A stretch of 64,000 nucleotides of DNA from a virus: positions 272,882-336,881 of IMG/VR virus record IMGVR_UViG_3300005529_000001. The stretch is one strand, 5' to 3'. A model generated the notes under the pieces. The model searched no databases, was not told where the DNA came from, and worked only from the letters and a program-made list of their open reading frames with translations. The stretch's first letter is position 1. Each line of letters opens with the position of its first letter. Positions 28,796 to 57,877 of the stretch are shown here, one piece after another. A program made the translations under genes and the position numbers.

Positions 28796-28804
28796 CTGAT
28801 TACC

Positions 28805-41956: not shown

Positions 41957-42681
41957 GACACGTCAACATCAAACAAAAGCTTGAGGAAATCGGCGTCTCG
42001 CTTGATTCGATCATGATGGGTGACTTCGATTACATCGGAGAATACACTGCCAAACGTGATAGGAAGCCGAACGATGCCAACTACAAGAAGTACGGCGCGT
42101 ATTACCGCTCCAACTATGAACGGGGGATTCTAATCTACTACCTAATCCGCCAGTTCAACCTAAGGTCATTCCTTGAGGTTGGTTTTGGTCGCGGTTATGG
42201 GACGTTTTGTGCTGCACGAGCTTTCCATGACGCAGGAATCGAGGGAAAAGTCCTAACCATCGACCCCGCTCTTGACGAGAAATACCTGACTGCACTCCAA
42301 CAGGTCTTTCCCAAAGAGTGGTTCAAGTGCATCCAGTTTGCCAAGGGCACGTCACAAGCGATACTTCCTCAGGTCAAAGATCACTATGATCTTGTCTATG
42401 TTGATGGCGACCATTCGTATGACGGCACCAAACATGACTGGGAGAAGACCAAAGACTTGTGGGACAAGTTCTTGCTGTTTGACGATTACCACCTCCCCAC
42501 GAAAGACGACCCAGGCATCCAGTGCTCACGACTGATCGATGAGATCGACGATCCATCAAAGGAACTCATCATCATGGACCGCCGGATGTTTTTCGATGAC
42601 CGCCGCTTCACCGATGATCAGATCGATTACGGTCAGGTGTTATTGAGCAAACCAGGAACGGGCCGTGATGATTGGGAATGA
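41953..42681 (+). CDS. class I SAM-dependent methyltransferase (O-methyltransferase/Methyltransf_24-like)
   Basis: Motif I LEVGFGRGYGT; LVYVDGDHSYD. Confidence 0.65.
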   Translation: MRHVNIKQKLEEIGVSLDSIMMGDFDYIGEYTAKRDRKPNDANYKKYGAYYRSNYERGILIYYLIRQFNLRSFLEVGFGRGYGTFCAARAFHDAGIEGKVLTIDPALDEKYLTALQQVFPKEWFKCIQFAKGTSQAILPQVKDHYDLVYVDGDHSYDGTKHDWEKTKDLWDKFLLFDDYHLPTKDDPGIQCSRLIDEIDDPSKELIIMDRRMFFDDRRFTDDQIDYGQVLLSKPGTGRDDWE

Positions 42682-43033
42682 TAAATGCGTAGTCCCACCT
42701 GATGGGTGGTATTGCACTCGCAAAGCGGGTCATGACGGTCCCTGCGCTGCGTTGCCTGTCGTTGACGTTGAGAAACCTAATGATGTTGCGTTCTCGTATT
42801 CGGTCACCAAAAAGCAAGTCGCGCAAGCCAAGGTGTGGGTGGAGAAACATGACCTTGAGAAGCACGCAAAGGCAATGAAACCCTACGGCGAGGGTGGCAA
42901 GCTGATCCGTTACAGCGGAGCTATCGGCGGGGCATATACGTGGGAGTTCACTCCAACCAGCTTGGGAATCGCCGTAAACCTTCGATGTTCATGCGGAGAG
43001 AAGTTTGATGTCACGGACTATGATCTCTGGTGA
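42665..43033 (+). CDS. hypothetical Cys-rich protein
   Basis: 122 aa. Confidence 0.35.
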   Translation: MMIGNDKCVVPPDGWYCTRKAGHDGPCAALPVVDVEKPNDVAFSYSVTKKQVAQAKVWVEKHDLEKHAKAMKPYGEGGKLIRYSGAIGGAYTWEFTPTSLGIAVNLRCSCGEKFDVTDYDLW

Positions 43034-43760
43034 GAATCGCTTTGTCTTTGTTGCGCCGATGTACAATGCATCGGCAACACTAGACCAGTGTCTCGCTAGC
43101 TTGGTGGGCCAGTCTTACAAGAACTGGAAGATCATTCTTATTGATGACGTGTCTGACCAACACGAGGTGATGAAAGAAGCTGAGATCATCCGTCGGTGGC
43201 GACCCATGTGTTATAGCGGTGGCATGCAGATCGTGGATGTCTGGAACGATGAGAAGAAATGGGAGGTTGCCAACGTCCTACATGGCATCAGCATGTGTGA
43301 ACCCAATGACATCGTCTGTCGCATGGACGCCGATGACTGGTTGACGGAGCTTGATGCGCTGTGCATGCTTAACGCAGCATACACCCAGATGAAGTGTGAC
43401 TGCTTATGGACTGCACACAGGTGGGGTTTTAGCGACAAGAACATCAGCGGGCCCATGTCAGACGGCACCGATCCCTACAAACACCCTTGGGTATCAAGCC
43501 ACCTGAAAACGTTCCGAAAGAGCCTCATCGATGGTGTCAATGACCAGAACTTTAGGGGTGAGGACGGGAGTTACATCCGACGTGCTGGTGACCAGGCAAT
43601 CTACTTGCCGGTCTTGCAACATGCCCAAAAGAGACTGTTTGTCCCCAGGGTCATGTACCACTACACGATAGACGATGTTCCAGAAACGTACCAGACTGAT
43701 GATGCACGCTTCCAGCGTGATGAAGCATTGTTTCTTCGAGCGAGGGGCTATGTACAGTGA
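43005..43760 (+). CDS. GT2-family glycosyltransferase
   Basis: FVFVAPMYNASATLDQCLASLVGQSYKNWKIILIDDVSD. Confidence 0.7.
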   Translation: MMSRTMISGENRFVFVAPMYNASATLDQCLASLVGQSYKNWKIILIDDVSDQHEVMKEAEIIRRWRPMCYSGGMQIVDVWNDEKKWEVANVLHGISMCEPNDIVCRMDADDWLTELDALCMLNAAYTQMKCDCLWTAHRWGFSDKNISGPMSDGTDPYKHPWVSSHLKTFRKSLIDGVNDQNFRGEDGSYIRRAGDQAIYLPVLQHAQKRLFVPRVMYHYTIDDVPETYQTDDARFQRDEALFLRARGYVQ

Positions 43761-44835: not shown

Positions 44836-45060
44836 ATGCTACGAATCGTTGTGACGGGACACCCAGCTGAGGGCAAGACGACGATCGCGATGATCATCGA
44901 GAAAGCTCTCAAAGACCACGGTATCTTGGTCAAGAACCTAGACCCCGACGTCGTCTACGGGTCAAGCAATCCCGACCTCCAGTCCAACCGAATCGAAACA
45001 CTTCGAGTTCGTTCTAGGGCTGAAAACGTTCACATCGAGACCGACCAGGTTCACAAATGA
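44836..45060 (+). CDS. small P-loop NTPase-like protein
   Basis: VVTGHPAEGKTT Walker A; start at ATG 44836 with AAGGGA RBS. Confidence 0.4.
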   Translation: MLRIVVTGHPAEGKTTIAMIIEKALKDHGILVKNLDPDVVYGSSNPDLQSNRIETLRVRSRAENVHIETDQVHK

Positions 45061-46013
45061 GAATGTATATCAACCGTTTGCCTGTCAGCGGGCCCTGGGG
45101 AGGTGGCAACCTTTTTGTCAGCGCGTTTCACAAGCGTGCTCCTGCCCTGGGCGAGAACAGGGACATTGAGCTGGTCATGGACGAAACTGGGCGCACGCCC
45201 ATTGACGTCATCCTGCTCGCGGGCTTGGATAACGACGGCACGGGCATCAGCGTTGACCAAGCGGTGATGTACCAGATGTACGTGAAACCCGACTGCAAAA
45301 TCGTCCTCCGCGTCAACGAAAATGACGCTCGGAAGGGCACCACGCACATGGATGACATGTTGGTCAGGGTGTCAGAGCACCTGGATGGGACAGTCTTTGT
45401 CTCTCATTACTTGCAAGACTACTTCAACGAACGTGGGTGGAAGTGTCCAAACCAGGCTGTCATCTACAACGGCGTTGCTCACGATGTCTTTTCGCCACAA
45501 CCCAAGTTTGACGACAACAAGCTCCACATCGTGGCACATCACTGGAGCGATAACCGGATGAAGGGTGCCGACATCTACGAGCAGCTCGACGTTTTCGTGG
45601 GAGAGCGGCCTGACAAGTTTGCTTTCACCTACATCGGTCGGCACCAGTGTGACTTCAAGAACACCACCGTGGTGAAGCCGCTTGCGGGCAAGGCTCTTGG
45701 CCAGGAGTTGGGAAAGCATGACGTGTACGTCAGCGCTAGCCGGTTTGATCCGGGCCCGAATCACATCCTCGAGGCGTTGTCATGTGGTTTGCCCACCTGG
45801 GTCCATCGTGACGGTGGTGGATGCGTTGAGTTCGCTGGTGATGACCATGCCTATGAAAACTGGGATCGGTTGCAGGAGATCTTGCGAGCTCCAAACCCAG
45901 TGGCGCCCAACTCAAACGCGGTGAAGCTTCGAACGTGGCAGGAGTGCGTCCAGGAGTATATTGACTACCTGGAGACCACATGGAAGGCCACATCAGGTTC
46001 GCAGAGCTCCTAG
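45057..46013 (+). CDS. GT-B (GT1/GT4-like) glycosyltransferase
   Basis: C-terminal DPGPNHILEALSCGLP resembling E-x7-E donor-binding motif. Confidence 0.55.
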   Translation: MRMYINRLPVSGPWGGGNLFVSAFHKRAPALGENRDIELVMDETGRTPIDVILLAGLDNDGTGISVDQAVMYQMYVKPDCKIVLRVNENDARKGTTHMDDMLVRVSEHLDGTVFVSHYLQDYFNERGWKCPNQAVIYNGVAHDVFSPQPKFDDNKLHIVAHHWSDNRMKGADIYEQLDVFVGERPDKFAFTYIGRHQCDFKNTTVVKPLAGKALGQELGKHDVYVSASRFDPGPNHILEALSCGLPTWVHRDGGGCVEFAGDDHAYENWDRLQEILRAPNPVAPNSNAVKLRTWQECVQEYIDYLETTWKATSGSQSS

Positions 46014-46767: not shown

Positions 46768-47066
46768 ACGATCACTTGCCCGGCATCCATTACGCGTGTC
46801 CTGTGTCGAGCTCGACAGACGTCGATCGGGTCTATAACTCCATCGATGACATGCTCCTGACTGGACATGCTAACAAGGTGGACGAACTGCTGACACAGGT
46901 TGACGTCACCAAGTGTTCGATCACCATCATGCTGTCTTACCTGACCATCACTCTTGTGTGGAAAGACGCACTAAAGAACCGTGCAGCTCTCTATGATCGG
47001 ATCTATGACCGCATCGGATTGGTTGACCTTACACGACGGGAGAGCTTGCTACAGGGACTCAAGTGA
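46764..47066 (+). CDS. hypothetical protein
   Basis: 100 aa. Confidence 0.3.
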   Translation: MNDHLPGIHYACPVSSSTDVDRVYNSIDDMLLTGHANKVDELLTQVDVTKCSITIMLSYLTITLVWKDALKNRAALYDRIYDRIGLVDLTRRESLLQGLK

Positions 47067-47998
47067 AGATACACTTCGATAACGTCAACTTAGACGCTCG
47101 AACAGGCCCGAACACGTTTGCTAGTCGACTAGCAAGAAAACTGTTCGAGATGGGACATTCTTGCCAGTTTGATGCCAAAGATGCCGACCTGAGCCTTGTT
47201 TTCATCGAACCCTCAGGAGCTTCCTTAGCAGCCAAAGTCGTCCAGCGGTTAGATGGTCTGTGGTTCAAGCCTTGGGAATTTGAGACAAAGAATGCTCGCA
47301 TCAAAGAGCTGTACCAAAAAGCCGACGCCATAGTCTTCCAGTCGGAGTTTGACCGTCAGTTCACCGAAAAACACTGGGGTTTGCAAGCGGCAACAGTCAT
47401 TCACAACGGCATTGAGCTAAACCCAGTCAAGCAGCTAACGATCCCGAAGCTAGTCGAGATGCGAGAAGCTTACGACCAGATCTATGTCTGTTCCAGCAAC
47501 TGGCACGCTCAAAAACGCCTTGAGACCAACGTCAGGCTGTTCAATCACCTGCGTAGCAAACACCCGAACTCGTGTCTCATCATTATGGGTGACCATCCTG
47601 ACTATCGAGCAACGGGCCCCCATACCTTCTACACCGGTCCGGTGGGCCCCGAAGTCTACAACCAGATCTACTCAGCAGCAAACTGGATGCTTCACCTAGC
47701 CTGGGCTGATCACTGTCCAAACGTGGTAGTTGAAGCTTTGGCCCAGGGCACGCCCGTTGTTTGCAGCAACGTGGGTGGAACCCAAGAACTGGTTGGCAAG
47801 TATGGCAAGGTTCTCGTAGACCAACCTTATGATTACGAGCTTTCTGATTATGATAACCCGCCGACCATCAACATTGAACAGGTCGATGACCTCCCCGACC
47901 GACAGAAGCTGGATTACACGGGCGTCGCCAACCTGATCGACATCAACACGGTGGCGAGGCAGTACGAGCTGATGTTTGAGGAGGTGGTTTCTCGCTGA
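47063..47998 (+). CDS. GT4-family glycosyltransferase
   Basis: HCPNVVVEALAQGTPVVCSNVGGTQELV (EX7E-type motif). Confidence 0.7.
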   Translation: MKIHFDNVNLDARTGPNTFASRLARKLFEMGHSCQFDAKDADLSLVFIEPSGASLAAKVVQRLDGLWFKPWEFETKNARIKELYQKADAIVFQSEFDRQFTEKHWGLQAATVIHNGIELNPVKQLTIPKLVEMREAYDQIYVCSSNWHAQKRLETNVRLFNHLRSKHPNSCLIIMGDHPDYRATGPHTFYTGPVGPEVYNQIYSAANWMLHLAWADHCPNVVVEALAQGTPVVCSNVGGTQELVGKYGKVLVDQPYDYELSDYDNPPTINIEQVDDLPDRQKLDYTGVANLIDINTVARQYELMFEEVVSR

Positions 47999-48601
47999 TT
48001 GGTGTACATTTGTTCTATGGGCAAGACGCGAAACGGCTTTGCGACGTGTACAGATTGCGGAGACGTTCGCTTCATGAAACGTCTAAGCTCGTCTGGATTT
48101 CGACTCTGTCGTAAGTGTGCTGCCAAACTGACAAATGCTCGAAGCAACTCTGCCTCGAAAGGCGGAAAAGTAGGCGGGAAACGAACGGCTGATCTGGGAA
48201 AATTGCAGGTTGCTGGACAGTTTGCTCACACTCCAGAAGCGGAGCGTAAGCGACACGAAACGTTGAAACGCATGGGCAAACTCTTTTCTTCCAAACCAGA
48301 AGAACATCTTCATAAATTGCTCATTGATCGGTTCGGTCCAGAAGATGTCGACCACCACATAATCGTGGCAGGGTTTCGGATCGACTTTTACGTCAAAAGT
48401 ATCAATACTTACATCCAGTTGGATGGCGCTTACTGGCACGGACTTCAACAACCCTACGATCAGTTGAAAGGTACACCCAAAGCGAAGTACGATCGAGACA
48501 GACGATGTGATGCCTACTTCACCGAAGTTGGAGTCCGTCTCGTCAGGATCATTGATACTGAGCTAGCGAAGGACGCTCAACATGCCCTCCAACGGATCTG
48601 A
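47999..48601 (+). CDS. DUF559/Vsr-like endonuclease domain protein with N-terminal zinc ribbon (homing endonuclease-like insertion)
   Basis: CTDCG...CRKC plus FRIDFYV...IQLDGAYWHG core. Confidence 0.5.
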   Translation: MVYICSMGKTRNGFATCTDCGDVRFMKRLSSSGFRLCRKCAAKLTNARSNSASKGGKVGGKRTADLGKLQVAGQFAHTPEAERKRHETLKRMGKLFSSKPEEHLHKLLIDRFGPEDVDHHIIVAGFRIDFYVKSINTYIQLDGAYWHGLQQPYDQLKGTPKAKYDRDRRCDAYFTEVGVRLVRIIDTELAKDAQHALQRI

Positions 48602-49637
48602 AAAAATTTACGTTCTCCCGCCCCAAGAGGACTGGATTGTGGATCGTATGACTGATGAGTGGTATACACACAACGCTGACATCAGCACCAGGAGTCCCCA
48701 AAAAGCTGATGTCATTTGGTTGATGGCAGATTGGGCTTGGCAGGCGTTGTGGCACGTCGGTCTTCTCAAAAACAAGAAGGTGTTGACGACTGTCCATCAC
48801 ATTGTGCCCGAGAAGTTCGGTCCTATGGAACGGGCTGACTTCGAACTTCGCGACACTGTTACTACTGCCTACCATGTCTTCAACCAGTACACCCACGATT
48901 TCATCCGGCCTCTGACCCTGAAACCCATCCACCTCATCAAGTACTGGGCAAATCAGGATCTGTGGAGACCTACTGGGACGAAGGAAGAATTCAGGAAAAA
49001 GTACAAACTTCCGCTAGATGTCTTTCTAGTAGGATCGTTCCAGAGAGATACTGAGGGTTCAAGTTTGGTGCTACTTGATCCAAAGCCTAAACTTGAAAAG
49101 GGCCCTGACAAATTTGTCGATTACGTGAAGATGCTTTCACAATATCGTGCTCAACACCAGATGTCGCCCGTTGCTGTCTTGTTGGGTGGATGGAGACGGC
49201 AATACATCACGACTCGTCTGCGCACGGAAGCTCCACACATCATGGTGTTTTCAACGGCTCCTGAAGATCGTATGCAGAAATGGTTTGAATACCCACAACC
49301 CGTTCCAGTTGTATGGACCTCGGCGAAATTGGTGCAGTCTCAACCTGTACCTCTGAAAGATTTTTTGCCCCCTCTCGAAACCATCAACGAGCTGTACCAG
49401 TGTCTTGACCAGTACGCGGTGACCGCGCGCCAAGAGGGCGGTCCCCAAGCCTTGATCGAGTGTGGCTTGCTGGGAGTGCCCACCGTGTCCACGCCAGTGG
49501 GCATTGCGGAGCAGGTGTTGCCACCATCAGCGATCTGTGAAAACGTTTTCTCCGCCTCACCTGCGGTCCCCAACGTCGAGAACTGGAAGCTACCGGGCGG
49601 GTTTGAACTATATAGGGAGTTGTTGCAGTCGTTATGA
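48582..49637 (+). CDS. GT-B (GT4-like) glycosyltransferase
   Basis: EGGPQALIECGLLGVPTVSTPVG. Confidence 0.55.
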   Translation: MPSNGSEKIYVLPPQEDWIVDRMTDEWYTHNADISTRSPQKADVIWLMADWAWQALWHVGLLKNKKVLTTVHHIVPEKFGPMERADFELRDTVTTAYHVFNQYTHDFIRPLTLKPIHLIKYWANQDLWRPTGTKEEFRKKYKLPLDVFLVGSFQRDTEGSSLVLLDPKPKLEKGPDKFVDYVKMLSQYRAQHQMSPVAVLLGGWRRQYITTRLRTEAPHIMVFSTAPEDRMQKWFEYPQPVPVVWTSAKLVQSQPVPLKDFLPPLETINELYQCLDQYAVTARQEGGPQALIECGLLGVPTVSTPVGIAEQVLPPSAICENVFSASPAVPNVENWKLPGGFELYRELLQSL

Positions 49638-50449
49638 GCGTAGCTTTTTTGCTTGTCACCTGCTGTCTTGAGCAGTCTCGTGCCGATCTCCTCGACAGGG
49701 TGGTCGAGAACCTGTGCGAACAAGCGCCTGAACTGCGAGAGACGATGCTTGTTTTTGACAACGCATCGACTGTCCCTGGCGTCAGGACCTTGCTGACATC
49801 AAACTTCCGTCATGTCCGTCAAGCTGACAGGAACGTCGGCTACTGGTCTGCGGTCGACTGGTGGCTCACGGTGCTCGATTCGGCACCCAAGAAGCCCGAC
49901 TTCACGTACATCATTGAGAGCGACATGATCCACTACAACTTCAATAAGCTGTGGGAATGTGCCGTCTACCTCGAACGAAACCCAGATGTGGGTTCGTGCC
50001 GGCTGCACCAGTACTCAGTCGTAGACAGGCACCTCTACAACAAAGACAGACCCCTGCCTGACAGCAAGCGCAATCTGTGGCAATCGCATCAAAACAAAGT
50101 GACGGGCGAGCAAGTCATCTTTTCACAATCAGAGGGTGACATCTGGACATCAACGTTCTTGACACAGCTCCCGGCACTGAACCGTTTTGAGACGATGAAA
50201 GAAGTCTTCCAAACGCTCCGAAGCTCTCCGATGTTTTCTGAGCTCGATTTCCAGATGAATTACTGGAAACGTTACCATCGAACAGCTATCCTCGACGGCG
50301 GGATCTTTCACTGTGATCTGAACCCACATGATGCTGGGACGCTAACTGGTTCGTGGTCATCGCCTGAACAACTAAAGCAGATCGGGTACAAGACCACGAG
50401 GATCGCAACAATCACTCCGCAAGACCAGTACACCGTTTGCTCGCTGTGA
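49634..50449 (+). CDS. putative GT-A (GT2-like) glycosyltransferase
   Basis: MLVFDNAST and ESDM acidic motif. Confidence 0.4.
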   Translation: MSVAFLLVTCCLEQSRADLLDRVVENLCEQAPELRETMLVFDNASTVPGVRTLLTSNFRHVRQADRNVGYWSAVDWWLTVLDSAPKKPDFTYIIESDMIHYNFNKLWECAVYLERNPDVGSCRLHQYSVVDRHLYNKDRPLPDSKRNLWQSHQNKVTGEQVIFSQSEGDIWTSTFLTQLPALNRFETMKEVFQTLRSSPMFSELDFQMNYWKRYHRTAILDGGIFHCDLNPHDAGTLTGSWSSPEQLKQIGYKTTRIATITPQDQYTVCSL

Positions 50450-50462
50450 TACAGTTCACAGG

Positions 50463-51503
50463 ATGTCTGGGACCCTTATCTTTGGCGGCACTGGTTCGCT
50501 CGGTCGCAAGCTGATTGAACGTCTCCTTCCCAAGGGAGACGTTGCTGTCTACTCACGTGATGAAGCGAAACACTGGACTATTCGAAATGAACTTTCGGGG
50601 TTCATTGAGAAAAGCTTGCCCTGGAAGCTTCAGTTCTTTGTGGGTGACGTCAGGGACAAAACTCGAGTCGAAGACGTCATTCGTCAGTACAACCCTGATA
50701 CGATCATCATTGCTGCGGCGCTGAAACAAGTAGACACTTGTGAGCTCAGCCCCAACGAAAGCGTGTTGACAAACCTGATTGGGACTCAGAACGTCATCGA
50801 CGCAGTCAACAAGTCACGGTTCTCCCCTGGTGTCTCAGTCATGTTCGTCAGCACCGACAAAGCTTGCGCACCTGTCAACGTCTATGGAATGTGCAAAGCA
50901 ATCTCAGAACGCGTCGTGACAAGCCAGGCTCGTACGGGGCTATCAAACGTCAGGTACCTAGCGGTCCGTTATGGCAACGTTCTCGAGTCTAGAGGTAGCA
51001 TCATACCGTTGTTCAAACACCAGTGTGAGAAAGGCGAGTTCTTGACGGTCACCGATCCCGAGATGACGCGGTACGTGATGACGCTAGATGACAGCGTGGA
51101 TCTTATCCAAAAAGCAATAGAGTTTGGAATCTCAGGTGAGACGTGGATCCCGTGTCTTCCAGCAATGAAGATCGGTGACCTTGCTGACATTTTTTCTCAA
51201 CGATATAACAAACCCGTCAAGGTCATTGGTTTACGGCCGGGAGAGAAGAAACACGAAGACCTGGTCAACGAGTCGGAGTCAGTTAGGACGCGTAAAATCA
51301 ATCCACCCGTGGGATTTAACTACGTCATCGACCCCGCGTTTCGTTCCGGCAATGGTCAACGGTTCACTTACTCTAGCTCGGACCTGGTCATGAATCGTGA
51401 AGATCTAGAGGTGTACCTCAACAAGCTTGGCATCTTTGACAAGCCGTTAGACCAGTTCAAGGGCCTTGCCATCGAAGAGATCGTCACCAACCGAAAGGAA
51501 TGA
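50463..51503 (+). CDS. UDP-GlcNAc 4,6-dehydratase-like protein (PseB/FlaA1/PglF/CapD family)
   Basis: GGTGSLGRKL Rossmann motif, YSRDEAK, YxxxK region. Confidence 0.7.
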   Translation: MSGTLIFGGTGSLGRKLIERLLPKGDVAVYSRDEAKHWTIRNELSGFIEKSLPWKLQFFVGDVRDKTRVEDVIRQYNPDTIIIAAALKQVDTCELSPNESVLTNLIGTQNVIDAVNKSRFSPGVSVMFVSTDKACAPVNVYGMCKAISERVVTSQARTGLSNVRYLAVRYGNVLESRGSIIPLFKHQCEKGEFLTVTDPEMTRYVMTLDDSVDLIQKAIEFGISGETWIPCLPAMKIGDLADIFSQRYNKPVKVIGLRPGEKKHEDLVNESESVRTRKINPPVGFNYVIDPAFRSGNGQRFTYSSSDLVMNREDLEVYLNKLGIFDKPLDQFKGLAIEEIVTNRKE

Positions 51504-52650
51504 CATGAAGACGTACCCGCTGTTCAAAGTCCACGTTCCCAAAGAGGAAGCTTTGGCCCAGTTGGGTCAGGTCTTCGACTCGGGTTTCATCAACGAAGGT
51601 ACGCAGGTCACCGCCCTGACCAGCCAGCTGTCTGAGTACCTAGAAAGCAATCACCTCATCCTGGTGAACAGCTGCACTAGCGCCTTGTTCATGGCGCTAA
51701 AACTCGCTGGGGTCGGTCCTGGAGACGAGGTCATCAGCACGGCGATGACGTGTGTGGCAACCAACGCTGCCATCGCAATGACAGGCGCTAAGATTGTCTG
51801 GGCTGACGTAGATCCTGAGAGCGGGATGCTTGATCCTTACAGCATCATGGAGAAGATCACTCCTCACACCAAAGCAGTCATGGCGGTGGCTTGGGCGGGA
51901 ACCCCACCTCACATGTTCATGTTGAAAAACACGTGCAAGGCATTTCATGTCAAGCTGATCTTGGATGCTGCACACGCGTTCGGCGCCTATTACAAAAATG
52001 CTCCCGTTCACGAGTGGGCTGACTACACTTGTTACTCATTCCAGGCTATCAAACACTTCACTACGGGGGACGGCGGCGCTCTTATCTGTACCGACAAGGC
52101 TGATTACCAGCGATCTAAGTCGATGAAATGGTTCGGGCTTGACCGTGACAAAACCAAGGATGCTGCGGGCAACTGGAAAGGCCAGCAGTGGGACACCGAC
52201 ATCGAGGAGATCGGCTACAAGTTTAACATGAACAACGTTTGTGCAGCCATCGGTCTGTCGCAGATGAAGCACGTTGACATGATCGTGGACGGCCACGTCA
52301 GGAACGGGGGCCGATATGACATGCTGTTCCTCGACTACGAGCCCGTTAGGCCAATCACGCGGCCAGACGGTAGCATCTCGGCACACTGGGTCTACACCAT
52401 GAAGGTGAACCCCGACAAGTGCAAGCTGTCACGTGACGATCTGTTGAAAGCTCTCAACGCTGAGAAGATCATGGCGGGAGTGGTACACGTTCCGAACGAC
52501 GATTACACCTGCTTTCAGGACATCAAAGACCATAACCTGAAGGGTCTCAAGCAGTTTGCACCCCACCAGTTCTCATTACCGTGTGGGTGGTGGCTTGAAG
52601 AGGAAGACATCCGTCACATCGCCAAGCGTGTCAAGGAACTCACACAATGA
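51504..52650 (+). CDS. DegT/DnrJ/EryC1-family PLP-dependent sugar aminotransferase (PseC/PglE-like)
   Basis: SFQAIKHFTTGDGGALI with conserved Lys; start re-set to ATG 51504. Confidence 0.7.
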
Positions 52651-53171
52651 GAGTTGATGTCCCGGACCAATATTACTTGCGTCCCGTTGAAAACGATGAT
52701 CACCCATTTCTTGTTGACTTGCACAATGATGAGCTGGTCCTCAGGAACTTGACACATCCAGAAGCCATCACTATGGAACAACACATGAAGTGGTGGGAGA
52801 AAACCAAAGCCGATCGGAAACAGCTTAGGTTGATCTTTGTGACAGACGGTCACCGGACGGGTGTTGCCAAGTTCTATGATTATGATGCCATCAACCGGAC
52901 GATTGTCCTGGGAGGCGACATCCACAAAGCACACAGGGGTCATGGGCTCGCTAAGTACATGTGGACGTTGATGCTTGAACGTTGTTTCGAGAGCTTCCAC
53001 GTTCACCGCGTTGGCCTGACGACCGCCGAATACAACGTGATCGGTCAAAGCGTCTACAAAAACTTGGGCTTCATGGAAGAGGGCCGGATCAAAGAATCGT
53101 TGTACCGTGATGGAAAGTTCTATGATCAGATCTGCATGTACCTAACAGAACACGATTGGGCGCTTCAGTGA
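52647..53171 (+). CDS. GNAT-family N-acetyltransferase (PseH-like candidate)
   Basis: GNAT motif A RGHGLAKYMW; follows dehydratase + aminotransferase. Confidence 0.6.
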   Translation: MRVDVPDQYYLRPVENDDHPFLVDLHNDELVLRNLTHPEAITMEQHMKWWEKTKADRKQLRLIFVTDGHRTGVAKFYDYDAINRTIVLGGDIHKAHRGHGLAKYMWTLMLERCFESFHVHRVGLTTAEYNVIGQSVYKNLGFMEEGRIKESLYRDGKFYDQICMYLTEHDWALQ

Positions 53172-53902
53172 ACGAACTGCCTCGTATCTTTGTGGGTACC
53201 ATGTACACCCAAGAGGGTGAGTTTGAGGGCTGTCTCAAACAGATCCGTGCGCAACAGGACGTCGTTGTTGCGCATGTCATCATTGCTAACATGCGTGAGA
53301 AAGAGGCACACAACGCTCTGTGGCACGCCTGGCGTCACCAGGGCTCAAGCCACGATCTCTTTGTTAAGGTCGATGCTGACACCATCCTAGCTTCACCACA
53401 CACGCTAAGGCTGATCTGGGAACAGTTCAATAACAACCCACGAGTCACGGGTCTCCAGGCACCGTTACATGATTACATGACTGATGGCCTGATCAACGGG
53501 CTCAATGCATTCTCAACCAAGGTCGTCTTCAATGATACCCAAGACGAACTGTACTGCGACAGGCAAGTGGACACGAACCATGATGTCGTCCTACGAGAGA
53601 AAGACCTACCATCAACGTTGATCCCGGCAGGTTTTCACTGTTGGAACTCGACTGACTCACAAGCTTTTCATTATGGCCTCCATCGGATGTTGAAGGGGCA
53701 ACGAACAACCATCGACAAAGTCAGAATGGCTTGGAACCGTGACCATGACAGACCAAGAGCTTGGGCTCTGATCGGCGCAAAGATGGCGGACCAGTTTACC
53801 ATCAATCGTCAGTTCAACTACAACGATCCGACGTTCAAAACAGCATTCGCTGAGGCAAATACACGTTATGATGAGCTCACCCAGAATCTTGCAGTTGGTT
53901 GA
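53156..53902 (+). CDS. hypothetical protein, possible GT-A-like glycosyltransferase
   Basis: VKVDADT acidic motif. Confidence 0.3.
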   Translation: MGASVNELPRIFVGTMYTQEGEFEGCLKQIRAQQDVVVAHVIIANMREKEAHNALWHAWRHQGSSHDLFVKVDADTILASPHTLRLIWEQFNNNPRVTGLQAPLHDYMTDGLINGLNAFSTKVVFNDTQDELYCDRQVDTNHDVVLREKDLPSTLIPAGFHCWNSTDSQAFHYGLHRMLKGQRTTIDKVRMAWNRDHDRPRAWALIGAKMADQFTINRQFNYNDPTFKTAFAEANTRYDELTQNLAVG

Positions 53903-54809
53903 CACCCTCGAGTACGCCAAGACCAACTGCTTCCAACACCAGTTGCTAAAGAGCCTACGAGGCATTGCACAAACAGAAACGTGTGCCTTGCCAGCGCTGG
54001 AACGTGCCCTGGACATGGATGACCGTCCTGTCATCGTTTGCCTGAAACAACGAACCCTGGCACAAAATCTGGACGTGCTCAAAGATCATTTAGGAGACAC
54101 GCCCATTGTCATATACGATCAGGACCCGTGGCAAGCCTACATGGATGATCCTGGTTATGTTGGCAAGGGAGTCTATGAACGCGCTGTCGAGCAACTAAAT
54201 GTCAAAGCGATCTGCGTTACCACCCAATGGTGGGCTGATTTCTTAGCGCACCGCGGTTTACCTGGCATTTTCGTCAACATGTGGATGTTACCCGAGTATT
54301 GCACCGAAACGCCAACATACGAAGACAGATCAATATCTGTAGGTTTCGTCGGCAGCCTGCATCCGCACCGTCAAAAGCTGTTTGACCAGCTCGAAGACAT
54401 GGGCATCATCGTCAACGTCCAAGGGGGAGGTCTGTCTTACCAGAGCTATTTGAACGAGCTATCAAAGATCCGTGTCTTCATCCATAGCGAAGATTGCCCA
54501 ATCATGTGTGAAAAGCAAGAACTCAACCTGAAAGACGCCCTGTGGATCAAAGACATTGAAGCCGCGGCTCGGGGTTGTTTCACCATTCGTAATGCGGGCG
54601 CGGGTTTCTTATCGTATTATGATGGGTGTTTGACGTCGTTTCTCTACGAAAACGTCGAAGACATCCCAAACATCCTGAGTGACATCCAGAAAATGGATCC
54701 CACGTCAAGGCAGTTGCTAATCAACAGCGCCGTCAGGTACATCCGTGAGTCAAACAAGTGGGAAGAAACGGCACGCACGTTGGTTACTTTGGCAACAGAG
54801 GGAACATGA
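53868..54809 (+). CDS. hypothetical GT-B-fold-like protein
   Basis: 313 aa; size/position compatible with PseG-type UDP-sugar hydrolase. Confidence 0.3.
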   Translation: MMSSPRILQLVDTLEYAKTNCFQHQLLKSLRGIAQTETCALPALERALDMDDRPVIVCLKQRTLAQNLDVLKDHLGDTPIVIYDQDPWQAYMDDPGYVGKGVYERAVEQLNVKAICVTTQWWADFLAHRGLPGIFVNMWMLPEYCTETPTYEDRSISVGFVGSLHPHRQKLFDQLEDMGIIVNVQGGGLSYQSYLNELSKIRVFIHSEDCPIMCEKQELNLKDALWIKDIEAAARGCFTIRNAGAGFLSYYDGCLTSFLYENVEDIPNILSDIQKMDPTSRQLLINSAVRYIRESNKWEETARTLVTLATEGT

Positions 54810-56083
54810 AAATAGGGTTCATGGGTCTGGGCAAGCTCGGGTTACCCGTTGCCCTGGCGGTGGAAGCCGCGGGCCACGAGGTGATGGGTTATGATCCTGG
54901 CGCTCAAGTTGTTGACATCATATCGACAAAGAAGCTACCGTATGTCGAAGAGAACGCCCAACCGTTGCTCGACAACACCAAGCTCCGGCTAGTAGGTCCC
55001 GGTGACCTGGTCGAACAGTGCGACTTGATCTTCGTAGCTGTCCAGACGCCCCACCACCCACGTTATGAGGGAGTCAGTCGCCTTCCGACCAAGCGAGTCG
55101 ATTTTGATTACACCTGGCTAAAGCAGTCGATCACCCAGCTCGCTGATGCTGCGGCCCAGAAAGCGAAGACGACCCGTGTTGTTGTCATCTCAACGGTGCT
55201 TCCCGGGACGATCGAACGTGAGATCTTCCCAATCATGCATGCGTACGGAAACTTCATCAAGCTGTGTTACAACCCGTTTTTCATCGCGATGGGAACCACG
55301 ATCCGTGACTTCACCAACCCAGAATTTGTTCTCTTTGGGGTAGACGATCACGAAACAGCAACCCTTGCTGAAACGTTTTACAAGACCATCCACGCTCGTC
55401 CCTTCTACAAGACGGGAATCAAGGAAGCTGAGCTGATCAAGGTTGCTTACAACACATTCATCAGCACAAAGATCGGGTTTGTCAACACGTTGATGGAGAT
55501 CTGTCACAAGACGGGTGTCAATGTCGATGCGGTCACAGACGGCTTGAAGCTAGCTAACGAACGTCTGATCAGCACCCGCTACATGACGGCTGGCATGGGC
55601 GATGGTGGCGGGTGTCACCCTCGCGATAACATCGCGTTGTCTTGGCTCGCTCGTAAGCTTGAATTGGGCTTTGATTTCTTTGAAGCGATCATGCTTTCCA
55701 GAGAACGACAGACGGATTGGTTTGCTGATGTGCTTGAAGAGCAGATCGAACAATGCCGGAAGATGGGCTGGAACCCGCCCGTTGTCATCCTCGGTCTATC
55801 TTTCAAACCGGAGACAAACCTGGTCACGGGCAGCCCGGCAATCTTGCTTGCAAACGTCATAGCGGAGCGTGGCATCACTCCCATGTTCTATGATCCCATT
55901 GTCAACCCCAATGACCGGACCCGGACGCTTCCCCCACCACCTGCTCTGTTTTTTGTGGGTACCAAGCACGCTGAGTTTGCAAACATAAAGTTTAGCGTAG
56001 GATCGATCGTTATCGACCCACACCGGTACATCCCCGATCAGCAAGGCGTCACTGTCATCAGGTTGGGTGATGGGACCAAGTGA
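54806..56083 (+). CDS. UDP-sugar 6-dehydrogenase family protein
   Basis: KIGFMGLGKLGLPVA NAD-binding motif; catalytic Cys GGGCHPRDN. Confidence 0.7.
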   Translation: MKIGFMGLGKLGLPVALAVEAAGHEVMGYDPGAQVVDIISTKKLPYVEENAQPLLDNTKLRLVGPGDLVEQCDLIFVAVQTPHHPRYEGVSRLPTKRVDFDYTWLKQSITQLADAAAQKAKTTRVVVISTVLPGTIEREIFPIMHAYGNFIKLCYNPFFIAMGTTIRDFTNPEFVLFGVDDHETATLAETFYKTIHARPFYKTGIKEAELIKVAYNTFISTKIGFVNTLMEICHKTGVNVDAVTDGLKLANERLISTRYMTAGMGDGGGCHPRDNIALSWLARKLELGFDFFEAIMLSRERQTDWFADVLEEQIEQCRKMGWNPPVVILGLSFKPETNLVTGSPAILLANVIAERGITPMFYDPIVNPNDRTRTLPPPPALFFVGTKHAEFANIKFSVGSIVIDPHRYIPDQQGVTVIRLGDGTK

Positions 56084-56774
56084 GTTTTTGGTCTCAGTCC
56101 TTGTCCCAACTCGAAACAGGGTCAAGTTGTTAGAGAAATCGTTGCGTTCGTTAAAAGACAACGCTCGGCTTGATTTCAAGCAGAAAATTGAGATCATCAT
56201 AAAGCTCGATGAAGATGATGTAGCGACCCAAAACTGGGTGATACAAAACAACGCCGAGCTGTGGACAACGCTGTTACCTGGGCCGCGCGGGCGCGGTTAC
56301 GCTGACCTCCACGTCTACTACAATGACATGTGTCGTTTGGCTCGGGGCGAGTTCTTGTTCCTCTGGAACGATGATGCTGAGATGTTGACGCCGGGCTGGG
56401 ACCTGGAGATCAACCGACAACTTGATGGCAAGCCGTGTTACTTGCAATCTGAAGTCAGCGACATTCGTGGACGTGACGCTTTCTTGTTTCCTATCGTTCA
56501 CAGGTCATGGTACGACAGCTGCGGTCACTTCTCGATGTCACCGCACAATGACACGTACGTGTTTAACGCATTCATCAAGTACCCGCAGCTGTTCCGTAAA
56601 ACGGCGATCGTGGTGCGACACGCCGCGTTACAAAATTTGCATGACATCACCAGCTTAGAAGCACGAGGGTGGTGGCCGACAACCAAGAGAGGTTGGGGCA
56701 GCCCGGAAGTCCAGGACTCGCTAGCGTCTGACATCAAACGCTTGGGAGAGCTGGTGAAACAGTATAAGCTGTAA
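56067..56774 (+). CDS. GT2-family glycosyltransferase
   Basis: VLVPTRNR and NDDAEM (DxD). Confidence 0.6.
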   Translation: MMGPSEFLVSVLVPTRNRVKLLEKSLRSLKDNARLDFKQKIEIIIKLDEDDVATQNWVIQNNAELWTTLLPGPRGRGYADLHVYYNDMCRLARGEFLFLWNDDAEMLTPGWDLEINRQLDGKPCYLQSEVSDIRGRDAFLFPIVHRSWYDSCGHFSMSPHNDTYVFNAFIKYPQLFRKTAIVVRHAALQNLHDITSLEARGWWPTTKRGWGSPEVQDSLASDIKRLGELVKQYKL

Positions 56775-56790
56775 AGATTACATTCTACGC

Positions 56791-57771
56791 ATGAAGAGCA
56801 TCGCCGTCGTGGGCCAGGGTTTCGTTGGTGGATCGCTAACGACAGTTTTTGCAGAGCGTGGCTTTGACGTGTATGCTTATGACAAAGCGGGCAAGATCGC
56901 TACGGGTGCTAAGGTTCCTCGCTTCCATGGCCACGGAACTGGGCCTGATGGAATCGAAGCTACATCTGTCAAGGGCTTGGTCTTTGCGATGGATGAATTG
57001 GGTAAGGCTTTCAGCAACGTCTACTTCGTGTGCTTGCCGACCCCCATGTTCGAGGACGGCGAGGCTGACCTGTCGATCGTTGAGGGCGTCCTCGCTGAGC
57101 TCGCCGAAGCGCACAAGGTCCTGGAGCGTTGGGGGATCGCGGTCGTCAAATCGACGGTCCCGCCGGGCTCAGTCGAGCGATGGAACAAGGCTTTCAACTC
57201 ACAGGGTCTCTACATCGTCTTCAATCCAGAATTCCTGACAGAGGCCAACGCCCTGGACGACATGCGCAACCAGGATCGGATCATCCTGGGCGGGCCCCGC
57301 CCCTACATCAACATTGTCAAGCTGCTGTTTCAGACGGCGTTCAAGGGCGTCCCCGTCATCAAGACCTCATCGACGACGGCGGAGATGGTGAAGTACACCA
57401 TCAACTGCTTCCTGGCGACCAAGGTCGCCTTCGCCAACGAGATCGCGCAGATCACTGAAGCGCTGGACGCTGACGGTCTTAACGTCGACTATGACAAAGT
57501 GGTTGAGTACGCCAAGCTCGACAAGAGGTTGGGCAACAGCCATTGGGCAGTACCAGGGCCCGTGCCCACGCACGATGGGCGATACGTGCGCGGTTTCGGA
57601 GGGCACTGTTTCCCCAAAGACTTGAATGCGCTTGTTTTCGTTGCGAAACAACTCGGGGTTGACCCGAAAGTCCTCACCAGTGTCTGGGCCAAGAACCTTG
57701 AGGTCCGCGGGCCCGAAGACCGCGACTGGGAACACATGCAAGGCCGAGCTGTCAGCAAGAAAAAGAAGTGA
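56791..57771 (+). CDS. UDP-glucose/GDP-mannose dehydrogenase family protein (second copy, shorter)
   Basis: VVGQGFVGG and catalytic Cys GGHCFPKD. Confidence 0.65.
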   Translation: MKSIAVVGQGFVGGSLTTVFAERGFDVYAYDKAGKIATGAKVPRFHGHGTGPDGIEATSVKGLVFAMDELGKAFSNVYFVCLPTPMFEDGEADLSIVEGVLAELAEAHKVLERWGIAVVKSTVPPGSVERWNKAFNSQGLYIVFNPEFLTEANALDDMRNQDRIILGGPRPYINIVKLLFQTAFKGVPVIKTSSTTAEMVKYTINCFLATKVAFANEIAQITEALDADGLNVDYDKVVEYAKLDKRLGNSHWAVPGPVPTHDGRYVRGFGGHCFPKDLNALVFVAKQLGVDPKVLTSVWAKNLEVRGPEDRDWEHMQGRAVSKKKK

Positions 57772-57877
57772 AACATTCAGTTTGGGCTGAATAGGGTATG
57801 CTCAAGACGGGAATCCCACCGTCGCCTTGACGTTGAAGCCAGTGAGGCTGAGTCAGGGACTCAACACGGAGAGTGTC

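What the first reader, a model, noticed from the sequence alone, without database searches (positions are those of the whole stretch)
50463..53171. Dehydratase-aminotransferase-GNAT triad consistent with UDP-2,4-diacetamido-2,4,6-trideoxyhexose (pseudaminic-acid/bacillosamine-type) synthesis
A PseB/PglF-like UDP-GlcNAc 4,6-dehydratase (GGTGSLG, YSRDE), a DegT-family aminotransferase (SFQAIKH PLP-Lys) and a GNAT acetyltransferase sit consecutively. These are the first three steps of the Pse/diNAcBac pathways. No NeuB-like synthase or CMP-transferase is recognisable, so the end product may be a di-N-acetylated 6-deoxyhexosamine transferred directly by the neighbouring GTs.
Basis: partly seen in the sequence, partly recalled or inferred. 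Interest (0 to 1): 0.6.

Follow-up and report, generated by a model that had tools for sequence, protein, structure and literature searches.

The report
Jumbo-phage amino-sugar pathway in glycan island
Three adjacent genes in a roughly 370-kb soil phage genome very probably convert UDP-GlcNAc into a doubly N-acylated 6-deoxy amino sugar that neighbouring phage glycosyltransferases use directly; the enzyme chemistry is ordinary, but its setting in a conserved phage glycan-building island is new.

Summary
Three intact, translationally coupled genes occupy 50463-53171:
- a Polysacc_synt_2 UDP-GlcNAc 4,6-dehydratase (Pfam 1.5e-78)
- a DegT aminotransferase (2.9e-81; its Lys183 aligns with ArnB Lys188)
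- a GNAT acetyltransferase (3.5e-13)

The window is part of a 369.5-kb T4-like jumbo-phage contig, and the triad sits in an ~18-kb island with about nine glycosyltransferases.

None of the three enzymes reaches the NCBIfam PseB, PseC or PseH cut-offs.
- **Dehydratase:** it groups with Megavirus Mg534, a C5-inverting enzyme, and has the [ST]DK...Yx3K motif rather than the Mx3K of PglF.
- **GNAT:** it is closer to SpeG than to PseH. In relatives a formyltransferase occupies its slot, or the slot is empty, which fits N-acylation of the 4-amino sugar.

The triad forms a six-gene module with three unannotated genes. AlphaFold2 and Foldseek show two of them to be GT-A and GT-B glycosyltransferases. 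The module recurs in about 30 viral contigs and in bacterial polysaccharide loci.

No NeuB, PseF or PseG was found in the 84 kb examined or in about 33 related loci. The most likely product is therefore a UDP-2,4-diacylamido-2,4,6-trideoxy-L-hexose that is transferred directly. The acceptor is unknown. This is a new member of a known kind, of moderate interest.

The parts
50463..51503 (+). UDP-GlcNAc 4,6-dehydratase (Polysacc_synt_2, extended SDR), probably C5-inverting. Key residues: GGTGSLG 8-14, T131-D132-K133, Y141-x3-K145.
   Evidence: Pfam 1.5e-78. NCBIfam PseB 258 bits, below the 407.75 cut-off. Best PDB match 4TQG, Megavirus Mg534, 6.5e-77. NJ tree and catalytic motif. Residue positions.
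51505..52650 (+). PLP-dependent sugar 4-aminotransferase (DegT family), 381 aa. Lys183 lies in SFQAIKH (codon 52051-52053).
   Evidence: Pfam 2.9e-81. NCBIfam PseC 242 bits, below the 423.5 cut-off. The best PDB matches are C4 aminotransferases by name or by my recall (AtmS13, CalS13, ArnB), and Lys183 aligns with ArnB K188. Start codon and SD.
52647..53171 (+). GNAT N-acyltransferase (Acetyltransf_3 group), inferred to N-acetylate the 4-amino sugar. RGHGLA acetyl-CoA motif at 97-102.
   Evidence: Pfam 3.5e-13. NCBIfam PseH 51 bits (cut-off 93.1), about equal to SpeG at 50 bits. A family profile hits SpeG at 6.6e-27 and PseH 4ri1 at 2.8e-8. ATGA overlap with the aminotransferase. The slot is occupied by a formyltransferase in L046.
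53168..53902 (+). Unannotated GT-A-fold glycosyltransferase ('ORF248', 244 aa) with an invariant D69-A-D71. Candidate transferase for the triad's product.
   Evidence: No Pfam or NCBIfam hit. 311 homologues, all unnamed. AF2 pLDDT 95.4. All Foldseek PDB matches listed with E <= 0.001 (46) are glycosyltransferases or glycan synthases, largely of the GT2 type. GTGA overlap with the GNAT stop. Co-occurs with the triad in phages and bacteria.
53868..54809 (+). Unannotated GT-B-fold glycosyltransferase ('ORF313'). It is not PseG-like.
   Evidence: AF2 pLDDT 96.2. Foldseek PDB top hits are Gtf3/GtfC, tll1591, BshA and MshA, and PseG is absent from the top 50. Precomputed PF13524 on some homologues. 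Part of the six-gene module.
49634..50449 (+). 'ORF271', a conserved module member and probable GT-A-like glycosyltransferase. The assignment is weak.
   Evidence: No Pfam hit here. Its L006 homologue has a weak PF00535 hit. Profile searches were inconclusive. Always next to the triad in phages and in the bacterial module.
39287..41197 (+). First gene of the island: a 636-aa protein with a GT2 domain at residues 318-422.
   Evidence: Pfam Glycos_transf_2 3.3e-6. Conserved in relatives.
41953..42681 (+). Class I methyltransferase (Methyltransf_24 / O-methyltransferase-like), conserved in the island.
   Evidence: Pfam 1.1e-12. 75-81% identity in relatives.
43005..43760 (+). GT2 glycosyltransferase.
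   Evidence: Pfam Glycos_transf_2 1.7e-13.
45057..46013 (+). GT-B (GT1/GT4-like) glycosyltransferase.
   Evidence: PHROG glycosyltransferase 3.4e-11. Weak Pfam GT1 hit.
47063..47998 (+). GT1/GT4 glycosyltransferase.
   Evidence: Pfam Glycos_transf_1 4.2e-14.
48582..49637 (+). GT1-like glycosyltransferase (weak assignment).
   Evidence: Pfam Glyco_trans_1_4 2.3e-4. Conserved in relatives.
54806..56083 (+). Full-length nucleotide-sugar 6-dehydrogenase (three domains). Accessory: present only in some relatives.
   Evidence: NCBIfam TIGR03026 219 bits, above its cut-off. Pfam hits to all three domains. Gene call. Presence and absence across relatives.
56070..56774 (+). GT2-like protein (weak assignment), accessory.
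   Evidence: Pfam Glycos_transf_2 1.9e-4. Presence and absence across relatives.
56791..57771 (+). Nucleotide-sugar dehydrogenase homologue, 326 aa, lacking the C-terminal UDP-binding domain. A core island gene.
   Evidence: TIGR03026 200 bits over profile positions 2-294 of 413. 59-83% identity in relatives.

Best explanation
The three genes are a nucleotide-sugar tailoring pathway carried by a T4-like jumbo phage.

Proposed steps (all inferred from homology):
1. The dehydratase oxidises C4 of host UDP-GlcNAc with bound NAD(P)+, eliminates water across C5-C6, returns the hydride to C6 and, very probably, inverts C5. The product is UDP-2-acetamido-2,6-dideoxy-beta-L-arabino-hexos-4-ulose.
2. 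The PLP aminotransferase (Lys183) aminates C4.
3. The GNAT acetylates the new amine from acetyl-CoA. This gives a UDP-2,4-diacetamido-2,4,6-trideoxy-L-hexose, L-altro if the stereochemistry follows PseC.

The product is not converted to pseudaminic acid. It is used as a UDP-sugar donor by glycosyltransferases fused to the triad. ORF248 (GT-A) is the prime candidate, because it is translationally coupled to the GNAT.

The six-gene module (ORF271, dehydratase, aminotransferase, GNAT, ORF248, ORF313) lies in an ~18-kb island with about nine glycosyltransferases, an O-methyltransferase-like enzyme and sugar dehydrogenases. No island protein has the hydropathy of a multi-pass integral membrane protein, and together they build a complex glycan during infection.

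What is shown: gene identities, folds, catalytic residues, synteny and co-occurrence. What is inferred: substrate, C5 and C4 stereochemistry, acyl donor, which transferase uses the product, and the acceptor.
For: Families and catalytic residues:
-.

Inverting type:
- The closest characterised enzyme is Mg534, shown experimentally to be a UDP-GlcNAc 4,6-dehydratase/5-epimerase with a Yx3K motif.
- The next best matches, FnlA, CapE and FlaA1/PseB, are also C5-inverting. For FlaA1/PseB this is stated in the review read, and 4j2o (FnlA) is deposited as a dehydratase/5-epimerase; for CapE it is my recall. PglF is the weakest match.
- The motif STDK...YGMCK fits [ST]DKxnYx3K. PglF and WbpM have TDKxnMx3K (review PMC8987622; alignment).

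C4 amination:
- By their PDB names ArnB and PseC, and by my own knowledge AtmS13 and CalS13, the best structural relatives are C4 aminotransferases.

The GNAT acts on the amino sugar:
- It shares a 4-base overlap with the genes on both sides.
- It is kept next to the aminotransferase in about 25 viral contigs and inside the same module in bacteria.
- The same slot holds an N-formyltransferase in L046, and is empty in L050 and L059. Separately, an SDR plus GNAT-like cassette sits at varying positions in the module in L041, L048 and L061.

Direct transfer:
- ORF248 is GT-A and ORF313 is GT-B by confident models.
- No NeuB, PseF or PseG family hit in the window, in 20 kb of flanks, in related phage loci, or in the bacterial loci examined.

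Phage identity:
- Portal, terminase, prohead protease and Gp23-type capsid protein on a 369,506-bp contig.
Against: - None of the three proteins reaches the curated equivalog cut-off for PseB, PseC or PseH.
- The GNAT profile matches spermidine acetyltransferases about 19 orders of magnitude better than PseH. Its sugar substrate therefore rests on gene context only.
- The residues that dictate C5 inversion are not known (review), and Pen-type 5,6-dehydratases share the same motif. The L-configuration is thus a phylogenetic inference.
- Only 84 kb of the 369.5-kb genome was inspected. NeuB, PseF or PseG could lie elsewhere, or be supplied by the host.
- Which glycosyltransferase uses the product, and on what acceptor, was not determined.
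Confidence: 0.72

Rival explanations
1. The triad supplies the first three steps of genuine pseudaminic acid synthesis. PseG, PseI and PseF would be encoded elsewhere in the phage genome or provided by the host, and the phage genes would boost flux into a nonulosonic acid.
For: PseB, PseC and PseH are the top-scoring NCBIfam models for the three proteins. The catalytic residues carry the same numbers I recall for H. pylori FlaA1 and PseC. Only 84 of 369.5 kb was examined.
Against: All three scores are far below the equivalog cut-offs. No NeuB, PseF or PseG lies next to the module in about 33 phage loci or in the bacterial loci inspected. In both phages and bacteria the triad is instead fused to glycosyltransferases. 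ORF313, the only GT-B candidate for a PseG-like hydrolase, matches true transferases. The dehydratase clade is separate from FlaA1/PseB.
Confidence: 0.1
2. The pathway is of the bacillosamine type. The dehydratase retains C5 and the product is UDP-diNAcBac or another D-configured 2,4-diacetamido-2,4,6-trideoxyhexose, as encoded by some giant viruses.
For: The determinants of C5 inversion are unknown. The best structural relatives of the aminotransferase, AtmS13 and CalS13, act on D-sugars by my recall. A predicted diNAcBac (D-QuiNAc4NAc) pathway is described for giant viruses.
Against: PglF is the most distant of the characterised homologues in the PDB search (1e-36 to 9e-38, against 6.5e-77 for Mg534). 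The motif is Yx3K, not the Mx3K of PglF and WbpM. PglD-type acetyltransferases are hexapeptide-repeat proteins (my own knowledge), whereas this is a GNAT. Mg534, FnlA and FlaA1 invert C5; CapE also, by my recall.
Confidence: 0.13
3. The GNAT is unrelated to the sugar pathway, for example a SpeG-like polyamine or protein acetyltransferase. The pathway product would then be the free 4-amino sugar, UDP-4-amino-4,6-dideoxy-HexNAc.
For: The GNAT profile hits SpeG at 6.6e-27 and PseH only at 2.8e-8. Some relatives (L050, L059) lack any acyltransferase in this slot.
Against: The GNAT is translationally coupled on both sides. It is conserved inside the module in phages and bacteria. In L046 its slot holds a formyltransferase, an enzyme class that acylates amino sugars. 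PseH is still the top NCBIfam model.
Confidence: 0.05

Closest known systems
Megavirus chilensis Mg534 (PDB 4TQG), a UDP-GlcNAc 4,6-dehydratase/5-epimerase in the giant-virus fibril glycosylation cluster
   Same: It is the best solved-structure match (262 bits, 44.5% identity over 308 columns). It shares the STDKAC..N.YGM.K active-site string and lies in the same larger clade in the NJ tree. It is also virus-encoded and sits in a glycosyltransferase cluster.
   Different: In Megavirus the 4-keto product is reduced by Mg535 to UDP-L-RhaNAc. Here it is followed by an aminotransferase and an acyltransferase. The host is a bacterium, not an amoeba.
PseB-PseC-PseH of Helicobacter and Campylobacter (the first three steps of pseudaminic acid synthesis)
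   Same: The three enzyme classes are the same and in the same order (extended-SDR dehydratase with DK...Yx3K, DegT aminotransferase, GNAT). These are the top NCBIfam models for each protein.
   Different: All three score well below the equivalog cut-offs. The dehydratase clade is separate from FlaA1. The GNAT is closer to SpeG. No PseG, PseI or PseF accompanies the triad; it is fused to glycosyltransferases instead.
PglF-PglE-PglD (diNAcBac) and the predicted giant-virus diNAcBac pathway (Moumouvirus australiensis Ma465-467)
   Same: The logic is the same: dehydratase, then C4 aminotransferase, then N-acetyltransferase, giving a UDP-diacetamido-trideoxyhexose that is used directly by glycosyltransferases. 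The logic also occurs in viruses.
   Different: PglF uses an Mx3K motif and retains C5. PglD is a hexapeptide-repeat enzyme (my own knowledge). PglF is the weakest PDB match.
Polysaccharide and LPS gene clusters of jumbo cyanophages (Iyer et al. 2021, PMC7824862)
   Same: These are multi-glycosyltransferase clusters with NDP-sugar-modifying enzymes in jumbo phage genomes, with variable gene content between relatives.
   Different: The phage lineage is different, from forest-soil and other environmental metagenomes, and is absent from the deposited phage genomes searched. The sugar pathway is different, and the six-gene core is shared with bacterial (largely proteobacterial) polysaccharide loci.

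Membership tests
PseB (TIGR03589, UDP-GlcNAc 4,6-dehydratase, inverting) | Score at or above the curated equivalog cut-off of 407.75 bits | tested here: not met
   258.1 bits. It is the best NCBIfam model but falls below the cut-off.
PseB (TIGR03589, UDP-GlcNAc 4,6-dehydratase, inverting) | Active-site signature [ST]DKxnYx3K | tested here: met
   T131-D132-K133 and Y141-x3-K145. The signature is taken from review PMC8987622. Pen-type 5,6-dehydratases share it.
PseB (TIGR03589, UDP-GlcNAc 4,6-dehydratase, inverting) | Inversion at C5 of the 4-keto-6-deoxy product | not testable with these tools
   Inferred only from the nearest characterised relatives: Mg534, FnlA and FlaA1, and CapE by my recall.
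PglF/WbpM-type retaining UDP-GlcNAc 4,6-dehydratase | TDKxnMx3K, with Met replacing the catalytic Tyr | tested here: not met
   The position holds Tyr141. PglF is the weakest PDB hit.
PseC (TIGR03588) | Score at or above the cut-off of 423.5 bits | tested here: not met
   242.3 bits, the top model but below the cut-off. In the PDB, PseC 2fn6 (1.2e-33) ranks below AtmS13, CalS13 and ArnB.
DegT/DnrJ/EryC1 sugar aminotransferases | Family profile match and the PLP-binding Lys in the SF[HQ]xxK motif | tested here: met
   Pfam 273.9 bits against a cut-off of 19.8. Lys183 aligns with ArnB K188.
PseH (TIGR03585) | Score at or above the cut-off of 93.1 bits, and closer to PseH than to other GNATs | tested here: not met
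   51.1 bits, tied with SpeG at 50.3. The family profile gives SpeG 6.6e-27 and PseH 4ri1 2.8e-8.
Complete pseudaminic acid pathway | Presence of PseG (UDP-sugar hydrolase), PseI (NeuB family) and PseF (CMP-transferase) | tested here: not met
   None in the 64-kb window, in 20 kb of flanks, or in related phage and bacterial loci. The other ~285 kb of the contig could not be read.
diNAcBac pathway (PglF/E/D) | Hexapeptide-repeat (LbH) N-acetyltransferase of the PglD type | tested here: not met
   The acyltransferase has a GNAT fold. That PglD is an LbH enzyme is my own knowledge.
GT-A glycosyltransferases (for ORF248) | GT-A fold with a DxD motif | tested here: met
   AF2 pLDDT 95.4. All Foldseek matches listed with E <= 0.001 are glycosyltransferases or glycan synthases, largely of the GT2 type. 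D69-A-D71 is invariant in 48 sequences. Catalysis was not tested.
Tailed jumbo phage (T4-like morphogenesis genes) | Portal, large terminase, prohead protease and Gp23-type capsid protein on a contig longer than 200 kb | tested here: met
   PHROG and Pfam hits. Contig length 369,506 bp. The terminase is 38.6% identical to that of Flavobacterium phage immuto.

The most novel reading that the evidence does not exclude
The island could be a virion self-glycosylation system of a widespread, uncultured lineage of environmental (mainly soil) jumbo phages. The phage would make an L-configured 2,4-diacylamido-2,4,6-trideoxyhexose and build a complex methylated glycan in the cytoplasm, without lipid-carrier machinery. 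As far as I know, that sugar is known only as a pseudaminic-acid intermediate. The phage would then attach the glycan to its own capsid or tail, as a bacterial-virus counterpart of giant-virus fibril glycosylation. Four observations point this way. The island encodes no protein with the hydropathy of a multi-pass membrane protein, and no PGT, flippase or oligosaccharyltransferase family was hit. Maintained paralogues of a major-capsid-protein fragment sit inside the island in at least seven relatives. The best fold matches of ORF313 include protein-glycan-extending Gtf3/GtfC. The island abuts a baseplate gene in a distant relative.
Probability: 0.2. Interest if true: 0.75.

Novelty: new member of a known kind. 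Interest (0 to 1): 0.42.

Why it matters
The chemistry of the three enzymes is textbook, so the triad alone is unremarkable. Four things about its setting are worth recording.

1. A whole lineage of 170-370 kb phages, seen only in metagenomes (forest soil among them), carries this pathway. I saw it in about 30 IMG/VR contigs and several metagenome contigs over 300 kb. None of them is among the deposited phage genomes searched. The pathway is the fixed core of an island whose N-acyl and accessory sugar genes vary like a bacterial O-antigen locus.

2. The same six genes occur together in chromosomes of Polynucleobacter, Rhizobiales, Pseudolabrys and others. This defines an uncharacterised bacterial glycan module, including two glycosyltransferase families that no Pfam or NCBIfam model matched, or matched only weakly.

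3. The only characterised member of this dehydratase clade is from Megavirus. This links the glycan toolkits of phages, bacteria and giant viruses.

4. If the UDP-L-sugar really is transferred directly, it would be a glycan building block not described outside pseudaminic-acid synthesis.

Tried and rejected
- **DNA similarity to deposited phages:** no match for the triad. There was also no tblastn match for ORF248. The dehydratase has only a 40% match in one uncultured huge phage.
- **Cluster look-up for names of NCBI homologues:** no names returned.
- **T4 late promoter TATAAATA:** absent from the window.
- **Sigma-70 promoter and terminator scan of the island:** counts no higher than in shuffled sequence. 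Timing of expression could therefore not be inferred.
- **Profile searches of ORF248, ORF271 and ORF313 against PDB sequences:** nothing significant.
- **hhalign of ORF271 against ORF248:** probability 0.3%. ORF271 therefore remains only a probable GT-A.
- **DNA glycosylation as the target:** considered unlikely. The island has about nine glycosyltransferases, and no hydroxymethylase or TET-like gene was seen in the window. It is not excluded.
- **Lipid-carrier-linked assembly by phage-encoded machinery:** rejected for the island itself. No island protein has a hydropathy profile typical of a multi-pass membrane protein. Only single segments reach the threshold, at the C-terminus of 46375-46767 and, marginally, inside the aminotransferase. 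No PGT, flippase or oligosaccharyltransferase family was hit. Host machinery could still be used.
- **Walking the rest of the contig:** not possible, because look-ups are restricted to window-encoded proteins. Only 10 kb on each side was added.
- **Literature search:** I found no paper describing a phage-encoded PseBCH-like module.


Full report
**1. What is at the coordinates**

The + strand carries three consecutive ORFs at 50463-51503 (346 aa), 51466/51505-52650 and 52647-53171 (174 aa). Pfam assigns them as follows:
- Polysacc_synt_2, 1.5e-78
- DegT_DnrJ_EryC1, 2.9e-81
- GNAT: Acetyltransf_3 at 3.5e-13 and Acetyltransf_1 at 5.4e-9

- GGTGSLG at residues 8-14, YSRDE at 30-34
- STDK at 130-133, YGMCK at 141-145
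- SFQAIKH at 178-184 of the aminotransferase
- RGHGLA at 97-102 of the GNAT

The aminotransferase begins at ATG 51505, not at the TTG 51466 of the mechanical ORF. This ATG has an AAAGGA Shine-Dalgarno sequence and lies 1 base after the dehydratase stop codon. It is also the start used in the public gene call. The GNAT start overlaps the aminotransferase stop as ATGA. The next gene starts with a GTG that overlaps the GNAT stop as GTGA.

**2. Where it is**

The window is not bacterial. It encodes a T4-type portal, large terminase, SbcC-like nuclease, PhoH, helicase, prohead protease S77, ClpP, and NadV plus an NMNAT-Nudix protein. The dehydratase sequence is found on a 369,506-bp ENA metagenome contig, and the window is bases 190729-254728 of that contig, reversed. 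A 640-aa Gp23-type capsid gene lies just outside the window. The terminase is only 38.6% identical to its best deposited relative, Flavobacterium phage immuto. The triad DNA has no match among 50,697 phage records. This is an undescribed T4-like jumbo phage.

**3. The island**

From 39287 to 57771 every gene is on the + strand and tightly packed. The genes are:
- a 636-aa GT2-domain protein
- DUF7768
- a methyltransferase
- a GT2
- an Acb5-family ORF
- a GT4-like protein
- two small ORFs
- a GT1
- an inserted restriction-endonuclease-like ORF
- a GT1-like protein
- ORF271
- the triad
- ORF248
- ORF313
- a full-length nucleotide-sugar dehydrogenase
- a GT2-like protein
- a dehydrogenase lacking its C-terminal domain

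A Kyte-Doolittle scan finds no island protein with the profile of a multi-pass membrane protein. Only single segments reach the threshold: the C-terminus of 46375-46767 and, marginally, one inside the aminotransferase. No phosphoglycosyltransferase, flippase, polymerase or oligosaccharyltransferase family was hit.

**4. Which dehydratase**

- The NCBIfam ranking is PseB 258 bits, FnlA 195, dTDP-glucose dehydratase 51 and LegB 33. PseB stays below its 407.75 cut-off.
- In the PDB the best match is 4TQG (6.5e-77). FnlA, CapE, FlaA1/PseB and Pen follow, and PglF is last at about 1e-36 to 1e-37.
- 4TQG is Megavirus chilensis Mg534. It has been shown experimentally to dehydrate UDP-GlcNAc and invert C5, and it has Tyr140-x3-Lys144.
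- A neighbour-joining tree puts the phage proteins and their bacterial module homologues in one clade. That clade is sister to Bacteroidia sequences plus Mg534, and is apart from FlaA1 and from FnlA/CapE.
- All members of the larger clade share STDKAC..N.YGM.K.
- A review tabulates [ST]DKxnYx3K for inverting enzymes (and for Pen) and TDKxnMx3K for the retaining PglF and WbpM. It also says that the residues responsible for 5-epimerisation are unknown.

An inverting, Pse/Mg534-type enzyme is therefore well supported. It is not proven, and the protein is not a PseB orthologue.

**5. Aminotransferase and GNAT**

Aminotransferase:
- PseC is the top NCBIfam model at 242 bits, below its 423.5 cut-off. 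ArnB, LegC and WecE follow.
- The best solved relatives are AtmS13, CalS13 and ArnB, then TlmJ and PseC. ArnB and PseC are C4 aminotransferases by their PDB names, and AtmS13 and CalS13 by my own knowledge.
- Lys183 aligns with ArnB Lys188.

GNAT:
- It is ambiguous by sequence: PseH 51 bits (cut-off 93.1) against SpeG 50 bits.
- A profile of phage and bacterial module GNATs hits SpeG at 6.6e-27, PseH at 2.8e-8 and the sugar N-acyltransferase FdhC at 2e-7.

The GNAT's role therefore rests on context, and that context is strong. The gene overlaps both neighbours. It stays with the aminotransferase in phages and bacteria. Among relatives, L046 has an N-formyltransferase exactly in its slot, and L050 and L059 have nothing there. 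L041, L048 and L061 carry an SDR plus GNAT-like cassette at varying positions within the module. This is the pattern expected for diversification of the N-acyl group on a 4-amino sugar.

**6. A six-gene module**

ORF271, the dehydratase, the aminotransferase, the GNAT, ORF248 and ORF313 occur in that order in three other large metagenome contigs of 172-345 kb, two of them labelled forest. All six are detected in that order in about 20 of 30 IMG/VR viral contigs. Most of the others lack one member or carry inserted genes.

The same six genes also occur in bacterial chromosomes, at 50-56% identity for the dehydratase. There the order is dehydratase, aminotransferase, ORF248, GNAT, ORF271, ORF313. 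The bacterial settings are:
- Polynucleobacter victoriensis, where the order differs and no ORF271 homologue was detected. The module sits beside rmlBDC, manC, ugd and a heptosyltransferase-like gene.
- Rhizobiales and Pseudolabrys. The module is followed by an ABC exporter (fused in Rhizobiales), and in Pseudolabrys it is preceded by a NusG-like gene and a carbamoyltransferase.
- Rokubacteria, Sneathiellales and others.

ORF248 has 311 homologues, all unnamed and without a Pfam domain. Its AlphaFold2 model (pLDDT 95.4) matches glycosyltransferases and glycan synthases, largely of the GT2 type, and D69-A-D71 is invariant. The ORF313 model (pLDDT 96.2) is GT-B. Its best matches are Gtf3/GtfC, tll1591, BshA and MshA, and PseG is not among the top 50. 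ORF271 is only weakly GT2-like.

**7. No nonulosonic-acid genes**

No NeuB, CTP_transf_3 or PseG-type hit was found in any of these:
- the plausible ORFs of at least 130 aa in the window, each scanned with Pfam, PHROGs or both
- the 10 kb beyond either end of the window
- the precomputed annotations of relatives
- the 20 most frequent or best-placed accessory genes of about 33 related loci
- the bacterial loci inspected

The accessory genes in relatives are instead GDP-mannose 4,6-dehydratase, RmlD-like reductases, a HAD-nucleotidyltransferase fusion, an ATP-grasp protein, and formyl- and acyl-transferases. Direct use of the UDP-sugar is the economical reading. About 285 kb of this genome remains unread.

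**8. What the glycan is for**

This is unresolved. Two readings are open.

- **Host surface remodelling.** The bacterial counterparts look like surface-polysaccharide loci. Jumbo-cyanophage polysaccharide clusters have been interpreted as remodelling the host surface to exclude other phages.
- **Virion glycosylation.** The phage island has no membrane or export component. Two further GT1 genes lie beyond the window end, followed by unannotated ORFs. In a distant relative the island runs into a gp25-like baseplate gene. At least seven relatives carry, inside the island, a gene whose product matches residues ~451-578 of this phage's major capsid protein at 39-51% identity. For the 234-aa L002 protein the match is 51% (7e-39). 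Two such proteins are 41% identical over their full length, so the ORF appears to be maintained. The window phage has a 71-aa ORF resembling capsid residues 397-446.

I put host-envelope remodelling and virion glycosylation at comparable odds.

**9. Verdict**

The enzymes belong to known families and the logic is known from bacteria and giant viruses. I therefore rate it a new member of a known kind, of moderate interest because of the conserved phage and bacterial module and the open question of the acceptor.

Noticed in passing
L002:14426-15130 (also L039/L040, L046, L050, L052, L055, L059); window 44582-44797: Partial paralogues of the major capsid protein sit inside the glycan island of relatives. 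The 234-aa L002 protein has a C-terminal half 51% identical to residues 451-578 of this phage's capsid protein (L064:14116-16038; blastp 7e-39; Pfam Gp23 1.5e-5). The L002 and L039 versions are 41% identical over their full length. The window phage lacks this gene but has a unique 71-aa ORF about 30% identical to capsid residues 397-446.
   Followed up: partly
window 56791-57771: A nucleotide-sugar dehydrogenase homologue of 326 aa lacks the C-terminal UDP-binding domain. It is a core island gene (59-83% identity in relatives), whereas the full-length paralogue at 54806-56083 is accessory. What a truncated enzyme does is unclear.
   Followed up: no
window 57827-60393: An NMN adenylyltransferase-Nudix fusion and a nicotinamide phosphoribosyltransferase together form a phage NAD+ salvage pair. 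A DSPc-like phosphatase (60413-60847) and a weak Macro-like ORF (60844-61350) follow. All are conserved next to the island in relatives.
   Followed up: no
window 44331-44567: A 78-aa ORF carries a precomputed hit to Pfam PF26761 (Acb5). It is conserved at 66-92% identity inside the glycan island of relatives.
   Followed up: no
window 47999-48601; 16791-17651; 13508-13906; 893-1654: Selfish-endonuclease-like ORFs are scattered through the window: MTES_1575-like between two glycosyltransferase genes (not conserved in most relatives), NUMOD3 plus TnsA-like, TnsA-like, and GIY-YIG near the head genes. Relatives have NUMOD3 endonucleases at the island slot where others carry the capsid-fragment gene.
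   Followed up: partly
window 13914-29827 (- strand): A run of large ORFs (952, 414, 658, 1388, 826 and 340 aa) has no Pfam or PHROG hit at all. Part of it lies in a lower-GC stretch (47-48% against about 52-53%). They may be structural or fibre proteins.
   Followed up: no
L065:11751-14227 (just beyond the window end): Two more GT1/GT4 genes (439 and 385 aa, one with a weak 'GT4-conflict' hit) follow a PD-(D/E)XK nuclease. The same trio recurs in relatives, and in L066 it lies about 2.5 kb upstream of a gp25-like baseplate gene.
   Followed up: partly
L007 (Hyphomicrobium MAG) and L008 (Leptospiraceae MAG): Two contigs binned into bacterial MAGs carry the triad in the phage gene order at 56-62% identity. 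They may be mis-binned phage contigs, or hints to the host range.
   Followed up: no
window 399-893: A phage-encoded peptide deformylase (Pfam 5.5e-47) lies next to the head morphogenesis genes.
   Followed up: no
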